A stretch of DNA of 64,000 bases from Macrostomum lignano. Lineage: Eukaryota. The notes under the pieces are model-generated. The model did no database searches. It was not told where the DNA came from and worked only from the letters and a program-made list of their open reading frames with translations. Position numbers and translations under genes: made by a program. Position 1 is the first letter of the stretch, and the number at the start of each line of letters is the position of its first letter. The stretch lies in NCBI GenBank assembly GCA_002269645.1, contig NIVC01001413.1:1-64000 (forward strand), in the 5' to 3' direction. Below, in pieces: positions 4,301-15,707 of this stretch.

Positions 4301-4320
4301 GTGGATGAAGATTAAGATAG

Positions 4321-6538
4321 TGATGTAACCGCCCTTGTCGCCTGTCCGCTCCGTAGAGAGACGAACGCATGGCTAGAGGGGGCAATGACCGTAGGCTGCC
4401 TATGACCGGGCAATGACCTGACGGACCTCCAGCACCAGACTGTCCCGCCCACATGATTAGTAGCTTTGGTAGCGCTTCGTGACCAGAGGGCCAAGGACCC
4501 ACATGGACCCCACCTGTAGCCAAGGTGCAATAGTTGGTCACTCGGTCATGGTATGACCGAGTGGCTGCCACCACTCTATGTGACCTGGCGCACCTGGATC
4601 TTTCTACCAGACCTCTCGAGGCTAGAGCCCCGCCTGGATTGGTTACCAGGGGATTTAGGCTAACAGGGGAGACGCATGCAGCCGAGTACAGGGACTCTGC
4701 TTGGGGCATGATCGGGAACTCTGGGCTCAATCCTGGAGGATTTCTCAGCAGGGGATCCTTTGTGGCTGTGAGCGAGGCTGACTTGCGACTTTGATTACTA
4801 AGAGTAGTATGAGGCGAACATGTACTGTCTACAGTTTAGATTGCTCAGGGCGAAGGGACGCGTTAGCATGGGGTTGCAACCTTCCTACTGCCATTCTGTG
4901 CCAAGACTCGCTAATCCCTCTACTGCACGCACACGCGGCCCCGCAGCACGCACTCACAGGCGGGCTTTGCACGGGGAGAGGCCATTAGCTTACCCAAACT
5001 TCCTTATGCTTTGCCACCCCGGGAGAAAGGCTTAGCAAGCCATGAGTGAAATGATGGTGAAAGATTGAATAATGATGAAGTTAGTTAATAGTTAATAATT
5101 AGGCCCTTAGGCAAATAAGCAGGCAATTAGGCGGCTTCACTATTGAGTAAAATACAGCAAAAGATACGGTATCACAATTGGCTCAGCTCTCTAATCAGAC
5201 AATGGAAAATAGGCAAACCCCGGATAAGCAAAGGCAATTAGAGCACAAATTAGTAGCAGGAACTTACCGGCAGCTGCACAGAGAGAGAGAGAGGCGGAGT
5301 GACCGAGGGCGGCTGTAGGCTGCAGTCAGGCAGACGGTGAAGCGGCGATGCGCTGGAGCGACGAGGCGCTGATGTAGATCAGGCGATGCTGATGATGCTG
5401 GGCGGTATCAGACCGCTGGCCGATAGGCGAGCTCACTTGGGGAGCTAAGGATAACTTGGCGGTAACAGACCGCGGACCGGCAGGGATTCGTCTTATAGAC
5501 GAATGGGTCAGAACTCAATCTGACAGCAAGTCCAAAGAAGGACGAGGAGAGGAACAGAGATAAACTCAGTTGAGTATTCTCATGCCGAAATCGCTTCCTT
5601 TTATAGACCTCACAGCCGCCTCCTCAAGGTCGTTACCATGGCTCCCTCTCTCTGATTGGCTGCCGGCAGAATGACGTCAGAATGAGTCATGATGAGAAGC
5701 ATGAGACCGGCATAGCAACATGAGAAATCGGGAAATTGCGCAATCCGGAGGTGGGGTGGGGGATAATTGGCGCAGCGGGTGGTCGCGAAAGTGTTGCGCA
5801 AGCAAACATTGAGAACAATAGGGCTGGGGTCGAGAACAAAGGAATTGGAAATCGGGGATAATTGGGGAAAACTGAGAACAATGGAAAAGTAAACATTGGA
5901 GAAAAGGTGATAATTAGGTGCGAAAACGAGAACAAAAGAAAGAGAAAATCGGAGAAAATGTGATAATTGGTGGGGGTCGAGAGAACAAAAGAAGCAAAAA
6001 CGAGAACAATAGAAGCGGAGGTGGGGTGGGTGTCACATGAGAAATTTGGGAAGGAGAACAATAGCGTGAGAAAAGGTTGCGCAAGAGAGGGGGATGAGTC
6101 ATCGATGAGTCACCGAGGGGGAGAAGGGGTCACACGACTTGCGTCACCGTTTGGGAGTTTGAGAGGGGATGGGGAGACGGTGAGCACACAAAGTACTGTA
6201 AGTAGACACAGGGAAAGAGGGGACAGCGCAGGAAAAGAGTGCAGAGGGAGACAAAAAAAAGGGAGGAGGTAGAGAAAGTACAGGAAGAATAGGGCGGGAA
6301 CAGAAGAGATAGGGTAGAGGGGGAGGTACAGAAAGGGGTAGGGGCTCCGGAAAGGCAGGTGTGGCGGCAGGAGAGACGGGACCAAGGCAGCAGGAGGGGT
6401 GCAGCAGAGCGGGAGTCTCCAGGCCCGGTCGGAGACCTGGCCGAGTCTCGACAGCTCTGTGCAGAGGGTGCACGGGATAGGAGGCACTTTCGAAAAAGTT
6501 CCCATGCCCTATCCCGCGACCAGAGCGTGGTTACATCA
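4321..6538 (-). repeat. 3' LTR (2218 bp)
   Basis: Termini TGATGTAACC...GGTTACATCA form a perfect 10-bp inverted repeat. Differs from the other LTR by about 7 substitutions and 3 one-base indels (by eye). Confidence 0.95.
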
Positions 6539-6555
6539 CACCCCCACTGCCTTTT
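6539..6555 (-). other. Polypurine tract
   Basis: - strand AAAAGGCAGTGGGGGTG directly abutting the 3' LTR start TGATG. Confidence 0.7.
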
Positions 6556-7142
6556 GTGACGGAACTGGTTCCGTCATCATCACTGCCCAACATGGAACCA
6601 CACAGACGGGAGCGGGATCTCAACCGAACGTGAAATCACAGAATTAACAAACCGCGAGCGGGAATGGAAAAAGGCGATAAAATAGAGGGGATAGCAATAA
6701 ATTCACAAACGAGATACATAGGTTGGAGTGCAATACAGAATTTCAAAAATTTCAACTGTTGCTGTGGCTAAAGTGGGAGGGGGGAAACACAGACAGCGCA
6801 ATAGTAGGGAGAAAAATAGCGAATTGTCAACAATAAATTATCATAATTGGATAGAAGCGCAGCTGGGAAAGAGAGGAAACGGGGAAGGGTGAGGGAAGTG
6901 GGGAAAAAGAAGGGGGGAAGGGTTGCTAGCACACAGCCAAGGGCAGAGCCTCGGGGAGAATGACGATTACACAGGGGAAAAATACTAATGCAGCGCAGTA
7001 AATTAATAAGCTAATTTCGCCGGGAGTTCAACCGCACGGAGGCCTAGCGTCCTTGAAGGCTCGGACCCCGCTTCAGCCAGTCAGAGGGCTTCGGGGCGAT
7101 CGGTTGTAGGCTGGGAGGCGCCGCGCCGTGCGCTGGCCACTG

Positions 7143-7255
7143 TATAAAAGGCGCCACTGATAACGGGAGCCGGCTGCCTGCAACCTACACGGAGTCGCAG
7201 TTTCCAACCAAGGCACTCAGCGCGATTTTCCAAACTATACAACTACTCGGTAAGT
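7143..7255 (+). promoter_or_regulatory. Putative antisense promoter and first exon inside the element
   Basis: TATAAAAG 7143-7150 after a GC-rich stretch; strong donor CG|GTAAGT at 7250. Confidence 0.4.
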
Positions 7256-8060
7256 CCCATCACCAACCTGATTTCCTTTCGCCTATACGTTAAACGAAAT
7301 CTACCCACTTGCCATGCCTTTCATATTAAACTGAGCCAACTTAGTAGTAAATATGTCTTTTCTTACGGTACTAAGAGTGAGAGGCCAACACAGACTTATT
7401 TTTATGAATTTGATTGACGCACAACAAAGACTCGTATATTATTAGTAAAAGGTGGCATATTAGAAAAACAAGTTTTTATTAGAAAAATAGTGAAATTAAA
7501 AATAGTGGCACACACAGAAACACACACACACAGGCCTCATTCACATCTCCGAAACCCTCAAAACTTAACAGCCGAAAGAGTTTGAAAGAGGAATTAATCA
7601 TTAATTTGACTGCCACCAGTTTGATGTACTATTATAAAAGAGAAAGGGGAACCTACCACCATCTTGGCGCATTACTAAAGAAAAGAAAAGGAGGATCGCC
7701 ACCATTTTGAGAGAGGTTGCTAGGGAAAACTGCCACCATTGTACATTAACAGGGAAGAGAAAGAGGGAACTCGTCACCAATTAGAGTGGATTGCCGGGGA
7801 AACTGCCACCATTTGCCCTTCTACCAGAGGAGAGGAAGACGAAAAACTGCCATCACTTGAGGTGTATTATTAAAAGAAGGCGGGGAATAAGGCTACCACT
7901 ACTTGATCACCTAGAGCTCAAGGAAGGAGAGGGAATGAAGAAAGAAGAAACCCCCAGAAGGCCACTACCACACGCCATAAAGTTAAAATCCCCATCTATC
8001 TACATCCTAATAATTTGCTAGTTCCTACTTCTATTTCATCCCTTAAATTCTCATTTTCAG

Positions 8061-8467
8061 GATTCCGGCCGCTAGTAGCCGAGCCCATCCTTGAAGAGGA
8101 GTCCGACTACGAAGCGCCCGAAGACAGCCATTCAGAGCCGGACGCCCCCTCTGATTCTGGGCCGGCTGCGCCATCTGGTGACATAGGCGCCGCGGCTCCC
8201 GGGCCATGCGACCGCCGGGCCGCCAGCGAACCAGCGTCCGGGGCCGGTTGGCATCCGGTACCACCGCCGTTGTCAGCCCGAGCGCACGCTCCGCCGCCGG
8301 TCGCCGCGGTGACGCCCGTGGCTGCCGCTCCACAGCCCTTGCCAACCCCTGTGGTGGAGACCGACGGCTCCTGGCATTTGGTCGTGCTGTCGACGGCCCT
8401 AATAGCCGGTCTCACAATGCACTGGCTACTGCTCTTGGAGCTATTTCTGCGGCTTCCCAACTGCTGA
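8061..8467 (+). CDS. Putative antisense exon: acidic/Pro-Ala-rich segment with a C-terminal hydrophobic helix
   Basis: Acceptor ctcattttcag|8061; GC-rich open frame inside AT-rich flanks ending WHLVVLSTALIAGLTMHWLLLLELFL; start codon unresolved. Confidence 0.3.
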
Positions 8468-9054
8468 TGCTGGTGGTTCTTAATGCTTACTTACTAATTC
8501 TGAACTATCTGTCCCCATAACTTGACTTTAATTACTTACCTGACTTTACATTGACTAAACCACTGGCCTACTCTAAACTAATTGCTGCCCCATTTGCCTG
8601 ATAAACTTAATTACATTGAATGCCCCCCCTATTGCCTCATCGAAACCAATTAAAAGTTTCCCAAAATCGGACTTTCACAAAGTGTGAACAAACACACGAA
8701 ATCAGACCTAAAGGTGCTAATTTCCTACGGTCCCAGACTTCCATTGTTCCCAGAAAATCTTAAACAGCGGGGCAGGACCTCCTGTGGAGCAGACCCATAG
8801 AAATTTTACTAGTTTCCAAGTTAATATTTACTGATAGGGAATTAACGCATACTGTACGGGCCTAATTTTCGAGCTAAAATCTTAGATATTTAAACAACAC
8901 CAACGAGCACGAGGTCACAACATAAATTCGAGTAATAGAGGGCATACGTAAATACGCGAAAAGCGGTCTCCAACGGGGCAACACGAGCAAAATTTCGACA
9001 CGCGAATCGGGGGGGGGGAATTAAGCAATCACTGGCTAGCTACCGATCTGTTAC

Positions 9055-9435
9055 TCAGCGGGGGTCGAATGGGAGACTCACACCTAGCAAGTAAACCTTT
9101 TCTGTTCGATAGTCTATGATAGCATGCGTACTGGCTAGAAAAGCACTACCCAGGAGGGAAACTGCTGCTGAATTGCCAACGACCAGAAAGAGGATTCTCA
9201 CCTCTTCTAGCCCAATAACTGCTGTGAGGGTGGCCTGGCCTAGCATCTCTAATTCATTGCCCGTGTAGGACACGGCCTTCACACATGGGGGCTCCAGGGC
9301 CTCCACACTCTGTCCGGTAATTTTAGTAAAGTCTTTGACTGTTAGCAAAGACAGCGCACTGCCCCCATCTACCAGGAGGCGGGTGGGAACATTCTCAATT
9401 GGCAACTCTACAACAATATCTCTCCCGCGTTGTCC
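9055..9435 (-). CDS. Retropepsin-type aspartic protease domain (no own ATG; stop right after the domain)
   Basis: IVVELPIENVPTRLLVDGGSALSLL...SLLGSAFL...IIDY fits the retroviral protease fold pattern; catalytic motif reads DGG. Confidence 0.8.
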   Translation of the reverse strand, partial: GQRGRDIVVELPIENVPTRLLVDGGSALSLLTVKDFTKITGQSVEALEPPCVKAVSYTGNELEMLGQATLTAVIGLEEVRILFLVVGNSAAVSLLGSAFLASTHAIIDYRTEKVYLLGVSLPFDPR

Positions 9436-9510
9436 TCAGCTGGTCTTGGCTGATAGAAATCGGGTACCTTCTCAAATCTAAACTTCTTGCTGGGCGGACG
9501 TGGCAGGTTA

Positions 9511-9578
9511 AGCTGGGCCCTAGAGAGGGAACGGGGCTGAGTTCGGGCCGGGCCATTCAGCCCTCCCACGGGTTTCCC
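9511..9578 (-). other. -1 programmed ribosomal frameshift signal (G GGA AAC plus predicted H-type pseudoknot)
   Basis: Heptamer 9578-9572 in the correct gag phase; 8-nt spacer; stem1 GGGCTGA(9563-9557)/TCAGCCC(9540-9534); stem2 loop GGCCC with GGGCC(9520-9516). Confidence 0.75.
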
Positions 9579-11002
9579 GAACCCGGGGGCTCTTCAGGCG
9601 TGGAAGGAGGAGGCATCAGAGCTTGCGCGCGCAGCTGGGCGAGCCTCTCCTGCCTCTCCCTGGTAGCCTCGTCTAACATATCTCTGCCCCACTCCTCTAA
9701 ATCTTGCCTATGGCGATCAGGTGGCGCACGAAGCTGCAATTGCTGCTGCTGCACACCCGGCGCCGGCGGCGTGGGCGCCTCCTGAATTGCAAGCGGCGGG
9801 GGCTGGGGTTGGCGCCAGTTCCTACTGCTATTAGAGCCGCCCTGCCCCTGCCTCCAGTTCCTGTTGGGAGTGGCGGGGCGAGGGGGCCTCATCTGCTGGG
9901 GCAGCTGGGCAACAGACTCTGCTGTCGCCTTCATAGTTTCATTGAGCTGCACCAGCTGGTTGCGCAGATCCTTTTGCGTTTGCTCTAGCGCGCCCAACCT
10001 CTCTTGCATCTCTGATAGGCCGTCACCGTCCTCCTCCGTCTCGTCAGCTTCCTGGTTCACCATCCTGACCCACTTGCGAGGGGGCCTGGGTGGCTGCTGA
10101 GGTTGCAGACGGACTTCGGTGCGGGACTCAGACCTGGGCGGGCCACTACTGTCCCATTTCCCGGCTAAGTCTGCGGCTTCTAACAGGGCTTGCTGCTGTT
10201 CTAACACCTGCTCAATTGTCTGCCAGCGACGGCTCAACAGATCTTGTCTGACCTGGCGGGGGAGCTTAGCGTGTTCCAAGTAGGTGTACACGATTTCTTG
10301 TTCTCTCTGCTCACCCTGAATCTGAGGAAACATGGCCGTTATCTGAGATCTTATCATAGCAGCAAAAGCACTATGTGATTGGCCGGGTTTCTGGCTCAGA
10401 TTCTTCAGCTTATTTCTCTTAGCCAGATCAGTGTTGGCCTCGCCCAACTGCTCTCCTAATCTAGATACGAACTGCTCAAAGGGCAATTGCCCGTCCAATC
10501 CTAAGGCTAAGTTCTGAAATTCACCTGGGAGGTGCGAGATGAGCACCTGCTTCCTAGCCTGATCTCCTACAGTTCTCTCCGCGTCCAGCTTGTAGATCAT
10601 TCTCTCTACCCATTGCACAAAACAGTGTTCGCCGGGAGAGAACTTTTCTACGTAGATTTTCGGCCTCTGGGCGTCTTGGCCCATGTTTAGCTGGTTAAAC
10701 GCATTGGCTATAGCGGCAACTAAGTCTCCTAGCTGCGGGACTGCCTGAGGAGGATTCTGGGCTGCGTCCGGGGGAGCAGCGGCGGCTGCTGCGCCACCCT
10801 GATTGGGAGCGGGAGCTGCTACTCCTTCATCTGGTTCCTCAACTACTACTGCTTCTGGAGGCTGAGGGACCTGGTTACCAGCGGCTGCGGCCATTGCGGC
10901 TGCGGGGGCGGCAACTGCTGGGGTGTCAGCGGCCGAGGGTGGTTGACCAGGGGCGTCTGCGCACACAGCTTCTACGACCCTATCTCCACGCGCCCGTGAC
11001 AT
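9557..11002 (-). CDS. gag: Gag (Ty3/gypsy retrotransposon capsid), 481 aa, no CCHC knuckle
   Basis: Intact ORF. FVQWVERM...RKQVLISHLPG...LKNLSQKPGQSHSAFAAMIR fits the retrotransposon capsid/MHR pattern, with a Pro/Ala-rich N-terminus and a coiled-coil/Pro-rich C-terminus. Confidence 0.85.
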   Translation of the reverse strand: MSRARGDRVVEAVCADAPGQPPSAADTPAVAAPAAAMAAAAGNQVPQPPEAVVVEEPDEGVAAPAPNQGGAAAAAAPPDAAQNPPQAVPQLGDLVAAIANAFNQLNMGQDAQRPKIYVEKFSPGEHCFVQWVERMIYKLDAERTVGDQARKQVLISHLPGEFQNLALGLDGQLPFEQFVSRLGEQLGEANTDLAKRNKLKNLSQKPGQSHSAFAAMIRSQITAMFPQIQGEQREQEIVYTYLEHAKLPRQVRQDLLSRRWQTIEQVLEQQQALLEAADLAGKWDSSGPPRSESRTEVRLQPQQPPRPPRKWVRMVNQEADETEEDGDGLSEMQERLGALEQTQKDLRNQLVQLNETMKATAESVAQLPQQMRPPRPATPNRNWRQGQGGSNSSRNWRQPQPPPLAIQEAPTPPAPGVQQQQLQLRAPPDRHRQDLEEWGRDMLDEATRERQERLAQLRAQALMPPPSTPEEPPGSGNPWEG

Positions 11003-13354
11003 GTGAATGCCGGATAGCTGGGGGAGTACCCACTACCGGGAAGGAAAAGAAAAGAAAACCGGGACAACTACAGGTAAAGACCGAAAAGTTGATCCGAAAC
11101 ACACAAACACACTCACACACACACAAACACAGACAAAACCCACACACTTGCGGCGTCGAAGAAAACAAATTGAAAAACGGGTGGCTCCACATAATTCCAT
11201 TTAGGCAGTCCTAACGGCTTCACTCGGCAAAGCACACTGACTCAAACTGCGGCTACCACTACCAGTTGTCTATGGCACATCCTGACAGGGAAAAATTGGC
11301 TATTCAGAGAGACTTGACCTTCATTTTGCGGCCATGCTAGGGAACCCAAATGCCGACCGTAAACGGACTTACGGCACCTGTACAAATTCTCCCCTAGGGT
11401 TGCGCGCCGGACCCCATTTCCTTAAGAAAGCTACTACGAAGAAGCGTTGGCGCCTGGACCCAAAAACCCAAGTGGCGGGAGCAATCCCCATGGAGGTCCT
11501 CCCACTTTACTGCCCTTGCACAGCCGGAAAACCGTCGGAGTCCAGTGGGGCTTCCACCTCAGGACTACCAATCTTGTACACGCAGCTTCACAAAAGGCGG
11601 GAATCCAGCTCCCCTACGTCTAGCAGAATCCACAAAAACCAAGACCTCCCCCTTCTGTTCAGAGCGAAGGCGCGCAGCGGGAGTCCAGACTAAACTGTCC
11701 CCGAAGTTTTCAGGTTAGGCGGATTACAAGCCTGAAACTCTCGCCCGCTTTCCTAGGATAAACAGACCTAAGTGAGTATCTTCCTGAAATGCTTGCCCCT
11801 CCGATACTCCACCTTTGCTGCAGCTCGAAATAGCATACTTGGGACCTTTATCTGATGGCGGAGAAAGTCCTACAGTTGTCAGCCTCTCCACTTTACTGTA
11901 CTTGAACGCCCGGTTCTACCAGGAGACAGCGGTACCTCCATCTAGGTTATTCCAAGTTGCCAGAGACGTCAACCCGTCTTATTGACCTTGCGGGGCACTG
12001 GGGTGGCACTCTATGTACCGGGGCTTTACATTAGGGGACTGCATGCAACCCTGCGTCTAAGCGCTTAGTGGGCTGCAGTGGCCAGAGGGGAAAAGAGTTG
12101 CGCAATAGCGCCTTCCTGGGCCAGGCTGACAAGTCGGGCAGGAGCGCCGTTCTACCGGGTCGGGCTGATTGGCACACCCACCTCCCCTATCAGACTGACA
12201 GCAGGGGGGAGGAATTACTAAAGGAGGAGAATGCAGCAGGAAACATTACGAGATCACTGGGGGCCACCAGACTTCCAGTACACCATTCCAATACTCACTG
12301 AACTCCACTATCAATAGGATACTATGGGATCTACTATTTCCAGCCACTGCACCAGCCCAAATGCAACCAAAGCAGTTACTACCGGGTCTGCAATACAGTG
12401 GGGAGAGTCAGCAGACACGTTGGGATCGAATCCCAGCCATGAAGGCACCAGGGGTTACCGCAGAATTCAGGTCCGGGCTGATCGCAGGTATTCCATAGGA
12501 GGTGACACTTTTTTTAGCCCGAGATTTTTGAGTCACACTGATACCCTACAGAGATACAATCACACCGCTATTCCCATTCCTGCGAGACTTTGGTATCCCC
12601 CAATGTTTCCAAGGCCATGACTACTGCTTCCCTTACTATGCATATATAGCGAGTTCCCCATAGCCCTTGATAGCTGTTCATTCTAATGGACAAACAAAAC
12701 ACGCTCCGGTCTCTACGCATTTCTAGGATTAACTGAGCGATCAGGGAGAGCGACTGTTACACTCCCCCGAGTAAAAGAAAGAGGTAGGACAAAGGAAAGA
12801 AATGCTTCGCTTCCAGCTTCCCTGTGCTTGCGTGATGAGGCTTCCGTACCTGGCTGGCTGTCCACCTCAACACTCACACAGTTCTGCTGTAGGCTAGGCG
12901 AGAGAAAGAAAGGGAGGGGAAATAAAGCATATTACCATGAAATAGAAAGTGAGTCCGGAAAATTCACTTTCGCAGTTCTTCACACACTCCGTTACCAGGT
13001 AGCTATTCTGATTGTAATCAAATCCGCTCGTCTACCACTTCACACTTTCTAGCGCTGAAACTGATCGGCTAAATTAATTTTAAATTGAATCAGGGGCTTT
13101 TGGCGAATGAATGAATTTGGAAATTTCGAATGAATTGAACGAATTCGCAGCCCGAAAAATTTGAAAAGTTACATTAATATTTTTGGATTTTGTTGCCTCA
13201 CGCCATGGGGGAAGAGAATGACGATTGGCGATTTTTACGATTGGTAGATTTAGACATGGCACTCTTTGCGCTTCGGCCACCATTCTGAGGGATGCCACAG
13301 GTGCGCTTGTCACATCTAAACCACCAGTCCGAAACTCAGCACTGTTTGCACCAG

Positions 13355-13372
13355 ATCCCACCGCTGCCACCA
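13355..13372 (-). other. Primer-binding site complementary to the tRNA-Leu 3' end
   Basis: - strand TGGTGGCAGCGGTGGGAT, 3 nt from the LTR. The + strand ATCCCACCGCTGCCACCA equals the recalled 3' end of metazoan tRNA-Leu(AAG) plus CCA. Confidence 0.85.
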
Positions 13373-13375
13373 TTT

Positions 13376-15590
13376 TGATGTAACCGCCCTTGTCGCCTGT
13401 CCGCTCCGTAGAGAGACGAACGCATGGCTAGAGGGGGCAATGACCGTAGGCTGCCTATGACCGGGCAATGACCTGACGGACCTCCAGCACCAGACTGTCC
13501 CGCCCACATGATTAGTAGCTTTGGTAGCGCTTCGTGACCAGAGGGCCAAGGACCCACATGGACCCCACCTGTAGCCAAGGTGCAATAGTTGGTCACTCGG
13601 TCATGGTATGACCGAGTGGCTGCCACCACTCTATGTGACCTGGCGCACCTGGATCTTTCTACCAGACCTCTCGAGGCTAGAGCCCCGCCTGGATTGGTTA
13701 CCAGGGGATTTAGGCTAACAGGGGAGACGCATGCAGCCGAGTACAGGGACTCTGCTTGGGGCATGATCGGGAACTCTGGGCTCAATCCTGGAGGATTTCT
13801 CAGCAGGGGATCCTTTGTGGCTGTGAGCGAGGCTGACTTGCGACTTTGATTACTAAGAGTAGTATGAGGCGAACATGTACTATCTACAGTTTAGATTGCT
13901 CAGGGCGAAGGGACGCGTTAGCATGGGGTTGCAACCTTCCTACTGCCATTCTGTGCCAAGACTCGCTAATCCCTCTACTGCACGCACACGCGGCCCCGCA
14001 GCACGCACTCACAGGCGGGCTGTGCACGGGGAGAGGCCATTAGCTTACCCAAACTTCCTTATGCTTTGCCACCCCGGGGGAAAGGCTTAGCAAGCCATGA
14101 GTGAAATGATGGTGAAAGATTGAAAAATGATGAAGTTAGTTAATAGTTAATAATTAGGCCCTTAGGCAAATAAGCAGGCAATTAGGCAGCTTCACTATTG
14201 AGTAAAATACAGCAAAAGATACGGTATCACAATTGGCTCAGCTCTCTAATCAGACAATGGAAAATAGGCAAACCCCGGATAAGCAAAGGCAATTAGAGCA
14301 CAAATTAGTAGCAGGAACTTACCGGCAGCTGCACAGAGAGAGAGAGAGGCGGAGTGACCGAGGGCGGCTGTAGGCTGCAGTCAGGCAGACGGTGAAGCGG
14401 CGATGCGCTGGAGCGACGAGGCGCTGATGTAGATCAGGCGATGCTGATGATGCGGGCGGTATCAGACCGCTGGCCGATAGGCGAGCTCACTTGGGGAGCT
14501 AAGGATAACTTGGCGGTAACAGACCGCGGCCGGCAGGGATTCGTCTTATAGACGAATGGGTCAGAACTCAATCTGACAGCAAGTCCAAAGAAGGACGAGG
14601 AGAGGAACAGAGATAAACTCAGTTGAGTATTCTCATGCCGAAATCGCTTCTTTTATAGACCTCACAGCCGCCTCCTCAAGGTCGTTACCATGGCTCCCTC
14701 TCTCTGATTGGCTGCCGGCAGAATGACGTCAGAATGAGTCATGATGAGAAGCATGAGACCGGCATAGCAACATGAGAAATCGGGAAATTGCGCAATCCGG
14801 AGGTGGGGTGGGGGATAATTGGCGCAGCGGGTGGTCGCGAAAGTGTTGCGCAAGCAAACATTGAGAACAATAGGGCTGGGGTCGAGAACAAAGGAATTGG
14901 AAATCGGGGATAATTGGGGAAAACTGAGAACAATGGAAAAGTAAACATTGGAGAAAAGGTGATAATTAGGTGCGAAAACGAGAACAAAAGAAAGAGAAAA
15001 TCGGAGAAAATGTGATAATTGGTGGGGGTCGAGAGAACAAAAGAAGCAAAAACGAGAACAATAGAAGCGGAGGTGGGGTGGGTGTCACATGAGAAATTTG
15101 GGAAGGAGAACAATAGCGTGAGAAAAGGTTGCGCAATAGAGGGGGATGAGTCATCGATGAGTCACCGAGGGGGAGAAGGGGTCACACGACTTGCGTCACC
15201 GTTTGGGAGTTTGAGAGGGGATGGGGAGACGGTGAGCACACAAAGTACTGTAAGTAGACACAGGGAAAGAGGGGACAGCGCAGGAAAAGAGTGCAGAGGG
15301 AGACAAAAAAAAGGGAGGAGGTAGAGAAAGTACAGGAAGAATAGGGCGGGAACAGAAGAGATAGGGTAGAGGGGGAGGTACAGAAAGGGGTAGGGGCTCC
15401 GGAAAGGCAGGTGTGGCGGCAGGAGAGACGGGACCAAGGCAGCAGGAGGGGTGCAGCAGAGCGGGAGTCTCCAGGCCCGGTCGGAGACCTGGCCGAGTCT
15501 CGACAGCTCTGTGCAGAGGGTGCACGGGATAGGAGGCACTTTCGAAAAAGTTCCCATGCCCTATCCCGCGACCAGAGCGTGGTTACATAA
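13376..15590 (-). repeat. 5' LTR (2215 bp)
   Basis: TGATGTAACC...GGTTACATAA (one terminal mismatch); adjacent to the PBS; duplicated ORF set in the supplied track. Confidence 0.95.
14620..14741 (-). promoter_or_regulatory. LTR U3 core promoter (AP-1, CRE, CCAAT, TATA)
   Basis: TGAGTCA 14735-14741, TGACGTCA 14724-14731, CCAAT 14711-14707, TATAAAAG 14657-14650, Inr-like TCA near 14625; mirrored in the 3' LTR. Confidence 0.6.
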
Positions 15591-15707
15591 ATAGCTAGAC
15601 TACTAAGAAACGAAATCGTTTAAGTGACAACACATTATTAAAAGTGCCATCGCCTTGGCGACAGAAGTTTTATTCAATTTATCAATCGCATCTCTCTCGC
15701 CACCCAG

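What the first reader, a model, noticed from the sequence alone, without database searches (positions are those of the whole stretch)
9511..9578. Canonical -1 ribosomal frameshift cassette (G GGA AAC plus pseudoknot) at the end of gag
Seen on the - strand: TC-G GGA AAC in the correct X XXY YYZ phase, 4 codons before the gag stop; 8-nt spacer; stem1 GGGCTGA/TCAGCCC (containing the gag UGA); loop GGCCC able to pair with downstream GGGCC; 13-nt loop 3. The -1 frame is open from 9593 past the stop. Established: GGGAAAC plus a pseudoknot drives gag-pro frameshifting in PEG10 and SRV-1. Inference: functional recoding, implying selection on a Gag:Gag-PR ratio even without pol.
Basis: partly seen in the sequence, partly recalled or inferred. 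Interest (0 to 1): 0.75.

Follow-up and report, generated by a model that had tools for sequence, protein, structure and literature searches.

The report
Frameshift switch in pol-less LTR retrotransposon
A recently inserted jumping gene that carries only a capsid gene and a protease gene has a textbook slippery sequence at the end of the capsid gene, which likely makes some ribosomes slip back one base to produce a capsid-protease fusion; the mechanism is well known, and finding it in an element that lacks its own copying enzymes is the unusual part.

Summary
It is the only in-phase canonical heptamer among 478 gag sites; its stems beat 398 of 400 shuffles. It lies in an 11.3-kb LTR element (LTRs 99.6% identical, 4-bp target duplication) encoding Gag and a retropepsin but no detectable RT or integrase. 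Two corrections. (1) In this window the -1 frame stops at 9410, before the protease, which sits in another frame; the matching contig in 4 of 4 public runs does not share this break, and related proteins join linker and protease in one ORF, so the break is an assembly error or private lesion. (2) The pseudoknot is not canonical: 4 or 9 nt lie between the stems, and a nested hairpin competes. Distant relatives point to the same heptamer at their gag end. Covariation and activity are untested; a splice-acceptor-like site inside the cassette is a rival. Verdict: likely real gag-pro -1 frameshift, a known mechanism, in a less usual pol-less element.

The parts
13376..15590 (-). 5' LTR (2.2 kb); TATA-like box at 14657, donor-like site at 14322
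   Evidence: 99.6% identical to the 3' LTR (6 mismatches, 3 gaps in 2216 columns)
15591..15594 (.). left copy of the 4-bp target site duplication
   Evidence: same four letters at 4317-4320
13355..13372 (-). 18-nt primer binding site, 3 nt after the LTR; complementary to a CCA-ended tRNA 3' end (tRNA-Leu by recall, not tested)
11003..13354 (-). 2.35-kb leader with 28 ATGs; acceptor-like site at 11033 just before the gag ATG (spliced gag mRNA inferred)
9557..11002 (-). gag, 481 aa from ATG; capsid-like domain, no CCHC zinc knuckle
   Evidence: Retrotrans_gag clusters, 0.95; PNMA E 0.0048, below cut-off; no knuckle motif; model pLDDT 79.9; top folds PNMA2 and Arc capsids, E 0.007-0.03
9572..9578 (-). 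slippery heptamer G GGA AAC in gag phase
9564..9571 (-). 8-nt spacer
9516..9563 (-). predicted stimulator: stem 1 9563-9557/9540-9534; stem 2 9554-9550 or 9549-9545 with 9520-9516; inter-stem loop 9 or 4 nt; loop 3 13 nt
   Evidence: competing nested fold
9520..9536 (-). pyrimidine tract plus AG ending at 9520 (splice-acceptor-like, 13 of 14 pyrimidines), overlapping loop 3
9408..9593 (-). -1 frame ORF (linker peptide), closed by TAG 9410-9408 in this window
9408..9440 (-). region of the frame break between linker and protease in this window's spelling
9055..9435 (-). retropepsin-like protease ORF, 126 aa, active-site motif DGG, no in-frame ATG, ends in its own stop
   Evidence: PF13975 E 0.0079, below cut-off; ASPRV1 chains E 1e-7; P0001 63% identical
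6539..9054 (-). 2.5-kb 3' internal region with no RT, RNase H or integrase ORF or motif; purine-rich tract at 6560-6539
4321..6538 (-). 3' LTR, with 10-bp inverted termini
4317..4320 (.). right copy of the target site duplication

Best explanation
This is an in-phase G GGA AAC heptamer with a GC-rich downstream structure at the end of gag in a young LTR retrotransposon that has no detectable RT or integrase, and it likely makes a minority of ribosomes slip -1 to produce a Gag-linker-protease fusion. Shown: the heptamer, phase, spacer, pairable stems, element anatomy, and that linker and protease are one frame in relatives. Inferred: most ribosomes stop at the UGA in stem 1 and make 481-aa Gag; those paused by the structure shift after codon 477, skip the stop and read into the protease; the protease would process this element's own Gag, and RT and integrase would be borrowed from an autonomous partner. 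The window's own spelling is broken between linker and protease (assembly error or private lesion), so as written this copy would give only Gag plus a 54-residue tail. The stimulator is more likely the pseudoknot with an inter-stem loop than the nested hairpin, but that choice is open.
For: Only in-phase canonical heptamer of 478 gag sites, and it sits in the 37-nt gag/-1 overlap. Stems beat 398 of 400 shuffles, 195 of 195 gag positions and the other 23 of 24 heptamers. The protease ORF has no in-frame ATG, so it needs fusion. Main contig of 4 of 4 runs (4 studies; one may be the source sample) keeps the cassette unchanged and differs in length from the window in the break region. P0001 carries a match to the -1-frame peptide (7 of 12 identical) directly before a 63% identical protease. 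The 30 loose letters of a divergent subfamily in 2 of 4 runs, read by eye, run in frame into the protease and match the -1-frame peptide at 6 of 8 residues (table 7). Distant relatives: P0006's last 17 residues and a stretch of P0002 fit frames 0 and -1 of one sequence (20 shuffles: at most 11), which forces G GGA AAC; 4 of 4 stand-alone Gag relatives have a tripeptide allowing an XXX AAA C heptamer within 20 residues of the end (no null computed). 9 of 13 listed protease differences to the divergent subfamily are synonymous against 26% expected (p 0.0014). G GGA AAC is among the most shift-prone heptamers for mammalian ribosomes (PMC5009743 passage).
Against: No frameshift was measured. No divergent copy aligned over the cassette at 80% or more, although divergent contigs run 160-169 letters toward it (tables 2, 7), so covariation is untested and sequence conservation between subfamilies is not shown. 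In a pseudoknot-free ensemble stem 1 has pairing probability 0.02 and a nested fold wins; the region is no more stable than shuffles. The inter-stem loop of 4 or 9 nt is atypical. A strong acceptor-like site at 9520 with in-phase donor candidates offers another route. The protease has DGG rather than D(S/T)G (usual motif recalled) and Gag lacks the zinc knuckle found in 4 of 4 stand-alone relatives. The 13 substitutions are a part of a table cut by 30 rows, and the divergent contigs in 3 of 4 runs carry a 143-nt deletion in the protease. The relatives are only 22-29% identical in capsid, so their signal may be convergent.
Confidence: 0.7

Rival explanations
1. The frameshift is real but the stimulator is not the proposed pseudoknot: it is a nested extended hairpin that also starts 8 nt after the heptamer, or a weaker compact knot with no inter-stem loop. 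(Conditional on frameshifting; overlaps the best explanation.)
For: Minimum-energy folds use the first GGCCC with 9520-9516 nested inside another helix (pair probability 0.94). A compact alternative with loop 2 of 0 nt scores -24.9 against -29.4. Simple stem-loops do stimulate -1 shifts elsewhere (PMC5009743 passage).
Against: ViennaRNA cannot form pseudoknots, so its ranking is biased. Stem 1 is the first helix to form in short folds, is a perfect 7-bp helix at the usual distance, and a 7-nt inter-stem loop is essential in the Visna-Maedi knot (PMC5009743 passage).
Confidence: 0.3
2. The cassette is an inherited relic: it served the gag-pol junction of an autonomous ancestor and is now unselected in a recent deletion derivative that only needs to be packaged.
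For: No RT or integrase. The window's copy is broken, divergent contigs in 3 of 4 runs have a 143-nt protease deletion, the protease motif is DGG, and the synonymous excess could date from an autonomous past.
Against: The 481-codon gag is open, and the protease ORF is open in the main contigs. P0001 and P0007, on two contigs of different length, end within one residue of this protease, and divergent contigs align across the protease end into the 3' non-coding region (table 8), so a protease-terminal stop looks old.
Confidence: 0.15
3. The Gag-protease fusion is made by splicing: an intron from a donor in gag to the AG at 9520 removes the gag stop and joins gag to the -1 frame; the pyrimidine-rich 'loop 3' is the acceptor tract.
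For: 13 of 14 pyrimidines before the AG at 9520, 1 of 9 such sites in the internal region; 8 donor-like GTs in the joining phase, best 7 of 9 consensus letters at 10073, and 5 of 9 at 9569. The element probably already splices its leader.
Against: In-phase donors are mediocre by my crude score; splicing does not explain why the one in-phase heptamer and the strongest stems sit exactly here; the inferred relatives' signal is a heptamer.
Confidence: 0.1
4. Heptamer and stems are a chance product of a GC-rich gag end.
For: Overall folding energy is ordinary; about 0.46 in-phase heptamers are expected somewhere in gag.
Against: About 1% for the overlap alone, times 2 of 400 for the stems, next to a protease that needs a fusion.
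Confidence: 0.03

Closest known systems
PEG10 (domesticated Ty3/Gypsy gene) -1 frameshift signal
   Same: GGGAAAC plus downstream pseudoknot; Gag and Gag-protease from one mRNA; gag stop inside the structure (PMC13622457 passages; PMC11299033 passages).
   Different: PEG10 is an immobile host gene; this element has two 99.6% identical LTRs, a primer site and a target duplication. No sequence kinship to PEG10 was shown; the capsid model is nearest PNMA2 and Arc and the protease nearest ASPRV1.
Betaretroviral gag-pro signals (SRV-1, MPMV, JSRV, HERV-K10)
   Same: GGGAAAC at a gag-pro junction, 7-nt spacer, stems of 6 bp, long loop 9-12 nt (PMC3835772 table); protease ORF ends in its own stop.
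   Different: Those knots have a 1-nt first loop and no inter-stem loop, and a second frameshift leads on to pol; here the inter-stem loop is 4 or 9 nt and no pol follows.
Visna-Maedi virus pseudoknot with interstem element
   Same: Several unpaired bases between the stems (7 nt there) and a long loop 1 (PMC5009743 passage).
   Different: Tested in a lentivirus gag-pol junction; here only predicted. A computational survey models the related SA-OMVV signal with no inter-stem loop.
Animal Ty3/Gypsy elements with pol in the -1 frame
   Same: 28 of 51 surveyed animal retroelements have pol in the -1 frame, many with classical heptamers (PMC5009743 passage).
   Different: They encode RT and integrase; this one stops after the protease.
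Gag-only non-autonomous LTR elements (plant TR-GAG; zebrafish BHIKHARI)
   Same: LTRs around a gag with no pol; recent activity (PMC4350172 passages; PMC9784723 passages; PMC12067270 passages).
   Different: TR-GAGs were defined as under 4 kb, with 5-bp target duplications and no protease domain, and PMC4350172 holds no mention of frameshifting; Bik-2 encodes gag only. This element is 11.3 kb, has a 4-bp duplication and keeps a protease behind a frameshift signal.

Membership tests
Classical eukaryotic -1 frameshift signal | X XXY YYZ heptamer in phase with the upstream ORF | tested here: met
Classical eukaryotic -1 frameshift signal | 5-9 nt spacer to a 3' structure | tested here: met
   8 nt; range from PMC5009743 passage
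Classical eukaryotic -1 frameshift signal | -1 frame open across the site and past the upstream stop | tested here: met
   open 9593-9411
Classical eukaryotic -1 frameshift signal | -1 frame leads into the enzyme ORF, in the window's own spelling | tested here: not met
   TAG at 9410-9408; protease in the +1 frame
Classical eukaryotic -1 frameshift signal | -1 frame leads into the enzyme ORF, in the family | tested here: met
   4 of 4 runs do not share the break; divergent subfamily and P0001 join linker and protease
Classical eukaryotic -1 frameshift signal | stimulator supported by covariation | tested here: inconclusive
   near-identical contigs only; no divergent cassette DNA found
Classical eukaryotic -1 frameshift signal | heptamer-dependent -1 product measured | not testable with these tools
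   needs a reporter or ribosome profiling
SRV-1-type compact H-pseudoknot | 0-1 nt between the two stems, 1-2 nt first loop | tested here: not met
   best models have loop 2 of 9 or 4 nt; the loop-2 = 0 model is weaker, with loops of 4 and 24 nt; reference geometry
Ty3/Gypsy LTR retrotransposon | LTRs, primer site, purine tract, target duplication | tested here: met
Ty3/Gypsy LTR retrotransposon | Gag capsid and retropepsin of Ty3/Gypsy type | tested here: met
   Pfam and Foldseek matches are weak individually but agree
Ty3/Gypsy LTR retrotransposon | RT phylogeny and RT-RNase H-integrase order | not testable with these tools
   the element has no RT or integrase; superfamily rests on Gag and protease only, clade unresolved
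TR-GAG | under 4 kb, Gag without protease domain, 5-bp duplication | tested here: not met
   11.3 kb, protease present, 4-bp duplication (definition)
Domesticated PEG10-like gene | immobile, LTRs lost | tested here: not met
   99.6% identical LTRs and target duplication

The most novel reading that the evidence does not exclude
An old lineage of mobile, pol-less LTR elements that keep their own protease under -1 frameshift control: a still-jumping counterpart of the PEG10 layout. Its knuckle-less Gag would be matured by its own DGG-type protease at a set ratio while RT and integrase come from a helper, and the ratio would be set by a pseudoknot with an inter-stem loop. The shared protease end point in a family 63% identical in protein and the synonymous excess fit this.
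Probability: 0.35. Interest if true: 0.6.

Novelty: new variant of a known kind. Interest (0 to 1): 0.38.

Why it matters
The recoding signal itself is ordinary. What would matter is the setting: non-autonomous LTR elements described in the papers I saw keep gag alone or lose it, whereas this one keeps Gag plus a frameshift-gated protease and is young. If the protease and signal are under selection after loss of pol, it shows that Gag:protease balance is worth maintaining for a parasite of another element's enzymes, and gives a living model of the intermediate from which PEG10-type host genes could arise. It would also add a natural test case for pseudoknots with an inter-stem loop.

Tried and rejected
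No whole genome is held, so copies could not be counted or aligned. Gag homologue searches by shared words found nothing; the HMMER scan gave 5 distant hits. Viral contigs: no relative of the protease (0 of 23 pattern hits) or of P0006 (0 of 15); alignment A1 was too diverse to search with; the primer-site motif gave 2 loci, a phage-like chance match (L002) and an unrelated single-ORF LTR element (L003), neither similar to this element. Metagenome contigs gave 1 locus of 226 pattern hits, a 21-residue chance match with no similarity to the element (L001). Rfam: 1 match at E 7, rejected. No RNA holder listed; contigs show no splice joint in gag or the cassette, but contigs drop rare forms and the 'RNA' run is a guess, so this says nothing on expression or splicing. 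Contig depths are not copy numbers. The protease model was too poor to use (pLDDT 49.5). A second programmed -1 shift between linker and protease was considered and rejected: no canonical heptamer lies there and other assemblies lack the break. Reinitiation rejected: no ATG in the protease frame between 9600 and 9360. Earlier-findings look-ups by place were empty. Paper searches listed no animal element with Gag plus protease only and a frameshift; I saw listings only for most hits and the library lacks most subscription journals and repeat databases, so this is weak evidence of novelty. One search gave nothing usable on DGG proteases. No supplements were read.

Full report
Setting. The window is rich in micro- and minisatellites, which suggests a large eukaryotic, probably animal, genome (inference; the host was not identified). 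The finding lies on the minus strand of an LTR element spanning 15590-4321. Its LTRs (15590-13376, 6538-4321) are 99.6% identical, with 6 mismatches and 3 gaps in 2216 columns; the ends are 10-bp inverted repeats, the flanks carry a 4-bp duplication, an 18-nt primer site follows the 5' LTR after 3 nt and a purine-rich tract precedes the 3' LTR. The primer tRNA is Leu by recall only. The insertion is therefore recent. The 6.8-kb interior holds gag (11002-9557, 481 aa) and a 126-codon protease ORF (9435-9055); no ORF, Pfam match or motif for RT, RNase H or integrase was found. Gag is supported by Atlas clusters, five distant relatives of 22-29% identity and a model whose nearest folds are PNMA2 and Arc capsids (no match reached E 0.001). 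It lacks the CCHC knuckle that 4 of 4 stand-alone relatives have. The protease matches ASPRV1 chains at E 1e-7 and has the motif DGG, shared with P0001.

The observation. All stated features are present: G GGA AAC at 9578-9572 in gag phase, four codons before the UGA, an 8-nt spacer, a 7-bp stem 1 holding the stop, GGCCC able to pair with 9520-9516, and a 13-nt loop 3. It is the only in-phase canonical heptamer among 478 gag sites; about 0.46 are expected in the whole gene but about 1% in the 37-nt overlap with the -1 frame. By my own stacking-only score the two stems give -29.4 kcal/mol, reached by 2 of 400 shuffles and 0 of 195 gag positions, and no other of 24 canonical heptamers in the 5' LTR and interior comes near (next -13.8).

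First correction: the frame. In the window the -1 frame closes at TAG 9410-9408, 54 codons after the slip, and the protease is in the +1 frame with no ATG of its own. Three results place this break outside the family norm. The near-identical contig in each of 4 of 4 runs laid (of 20 holders listed, 4 studies, one possibly the source) has no substitution in the cassette yet differs in length from the window in the break region. P0001, a natural 146-aa protein, has a match to the -1-frame peptide directly before a 63% identical protease. Loose letters of a divergent subfamily in 2 of 4 runs, read by eye, run in frame into the protease and match the -1 peptide at 6 of 8 residues (table 7). No slippery site lies in that region, so a second programmed shift is unlikely. 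Contigs merge copies, so assembly error and private lesion cannot be told apart; the 3 one-base gaps between the LTRs are compatible with either.

Second correction: the structure. The proposed knot leaves 9 nt (first GGCCC) or 4 nt (second) between the stems. SRV-1, MPMV, JSRV and HERV-K10 knots have none (PMC3835772 table and passages). The nearest precedent is the 7-nt interstem element of Visna-Maedi virus (PMC5009743 passage). A compact model with no inter-stem loop is weaker (-24.9). Without pseudoknots, ViennaRNA prefers a nested fold that starts at the same distance, gives stem 1 a probability of 0.02 and finds the region no more stable than shuffles; stem 1 wins only in short folds ending before the 3' arm. 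Some structure at the right distance is likely; which one is open.

Relatives. No divergent DNA of the cassette was obtained, and divergent contigs that run 160-169 letters toward it did not align there at 80%, which leaves conservation between subfamilies unshown. At protein level, the last 17 residues of Gag P0006 and residues 1259-1275 of P0002 (a flatworm gene model with an integrase remnant) are compatible as frames 0 and -1 of one sequence, against at most 11 in 20 shuffles; all 8 compatible strings begin G GGA AAC and allow an H-type fold, though the best geometry differs among them. All 4 stand-alone Gag relatives have a tripeptide allowing an XXX AAA C heptamer within 20 residues of the C-terminus (no null). 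This is indirect, and the relatives are distant, but it points to -1 shifting at the gag end in this group, as known for 28 of 51 surveyed animal retroelements (PMC5009743 passage).

Selection without pol. Of 13 listed differences between this protease and the divergent subfamily, 9 are synonymous against 26% expected (p 0.0014); the table was cut by 30 rows, and those contigs carry a 143-nt protease deletion in 3 of 4 runs. P0001 and P0007, on contigs of 1426 and 957 nt, end within one residue of this protease, and divergent contigs align past the protease end into non-coding DNA. So a stop after the protease looks old. Whether it reflects a long pol-less history or an autonomous ancestor with a separate RT ORF is unresolved; selection on a Gag:Gag-protease ratio remains inference.

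Rivals. Splicing: an AG at 9520 with 13 of 14 upstream pyrimidines overlaps loop 3, and 8 gag GTs lie in the joining phase, best 7 of 9 consensus letters; no RNA data bear on it. Relic: possible, but long open frames and the shared protease end argue against. Chance: unlikely.

Comparison and verdict. It works like the PEG10 and betaretroviral gag-pro signals (passages) and meets the sequence criteria of a classical -1 signal at family level; it is not an SRV-1-type compact knot, not a TR-GAG as defined and not a domesticated gene. Gag-only elements are known in plants and zebrafish (passages); searches listed no animal Gag-plus-protease element with a frameshift, in a limited library. An earlier unchecked note describes a pol-less Gag-protease gene in a fungus, so the layout may recur. 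The mechanism is known; the setting is a modest variant. Probability of a functional -1 shift 0.7; interest 0.38.

Noticed in passing
window 7907-8467 (+): Antisense 186-codon ORF inside the element with an acidic stretch, a Pro/Ala-rich linker and a hydrophobic C-terminal segment; an acceptor-like AG ends at 8060, so it may be an exon of a spliced antisense gene. No Pfam match.
   Followed up: partly
window 14322 and 11033 (-): Donor-like site in the LTR 335 nt after a TATA-like box, and acceptor-like site 31 nt before the gag ATG; splicing would remove a leader with 28 ATGs and also the primer site.
   Followed up: partly
window 8539 (-): Perfect donor consensus (9 of 9) in the 3' internal region, with acceptor-like sites at 7821, 7675 and 6863.
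   Followed up: no
window 9125-9269: A divergent subfamily (mostly under 90% alike) in 3 of 4 runs lacks 143 nt of the protease, so a protease-dead derivative also spread (table 5).
   Followed up: partly
window 9709 and 10870: Contigs share the middle of gag but continue into unlike sequence on the 3' side (at 9709 in X16, at 10870 in X6 and X16): sister subfamilies or recombinants with a different gag end (tables 7, 8).
   Followed up: no
window 15588-15590: The 5' LTR starts with one letter different from the 3' LTR within the terminal inverted repeat.
   Followed up: no
window 9360-9390 (-): Protease active-site motif is DGG and the second motif lacks the usual acidic or amide residue after Gly (usual motifs recalled); both features are shared with P0001 and P0007.
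   Followed up: partly
L003 1-5276: A record in the viral collection is a single-ORF (1571 aa) LTR retroelement circle with the same 18-nt primer site but no similarity to this element.
   Followed up: partly
window 16000-64000: Dense arrays of micro- and minisatellites with periods of 4 to 33 nt; most long ORFs there are repeat artefacts.
   Followed up: no
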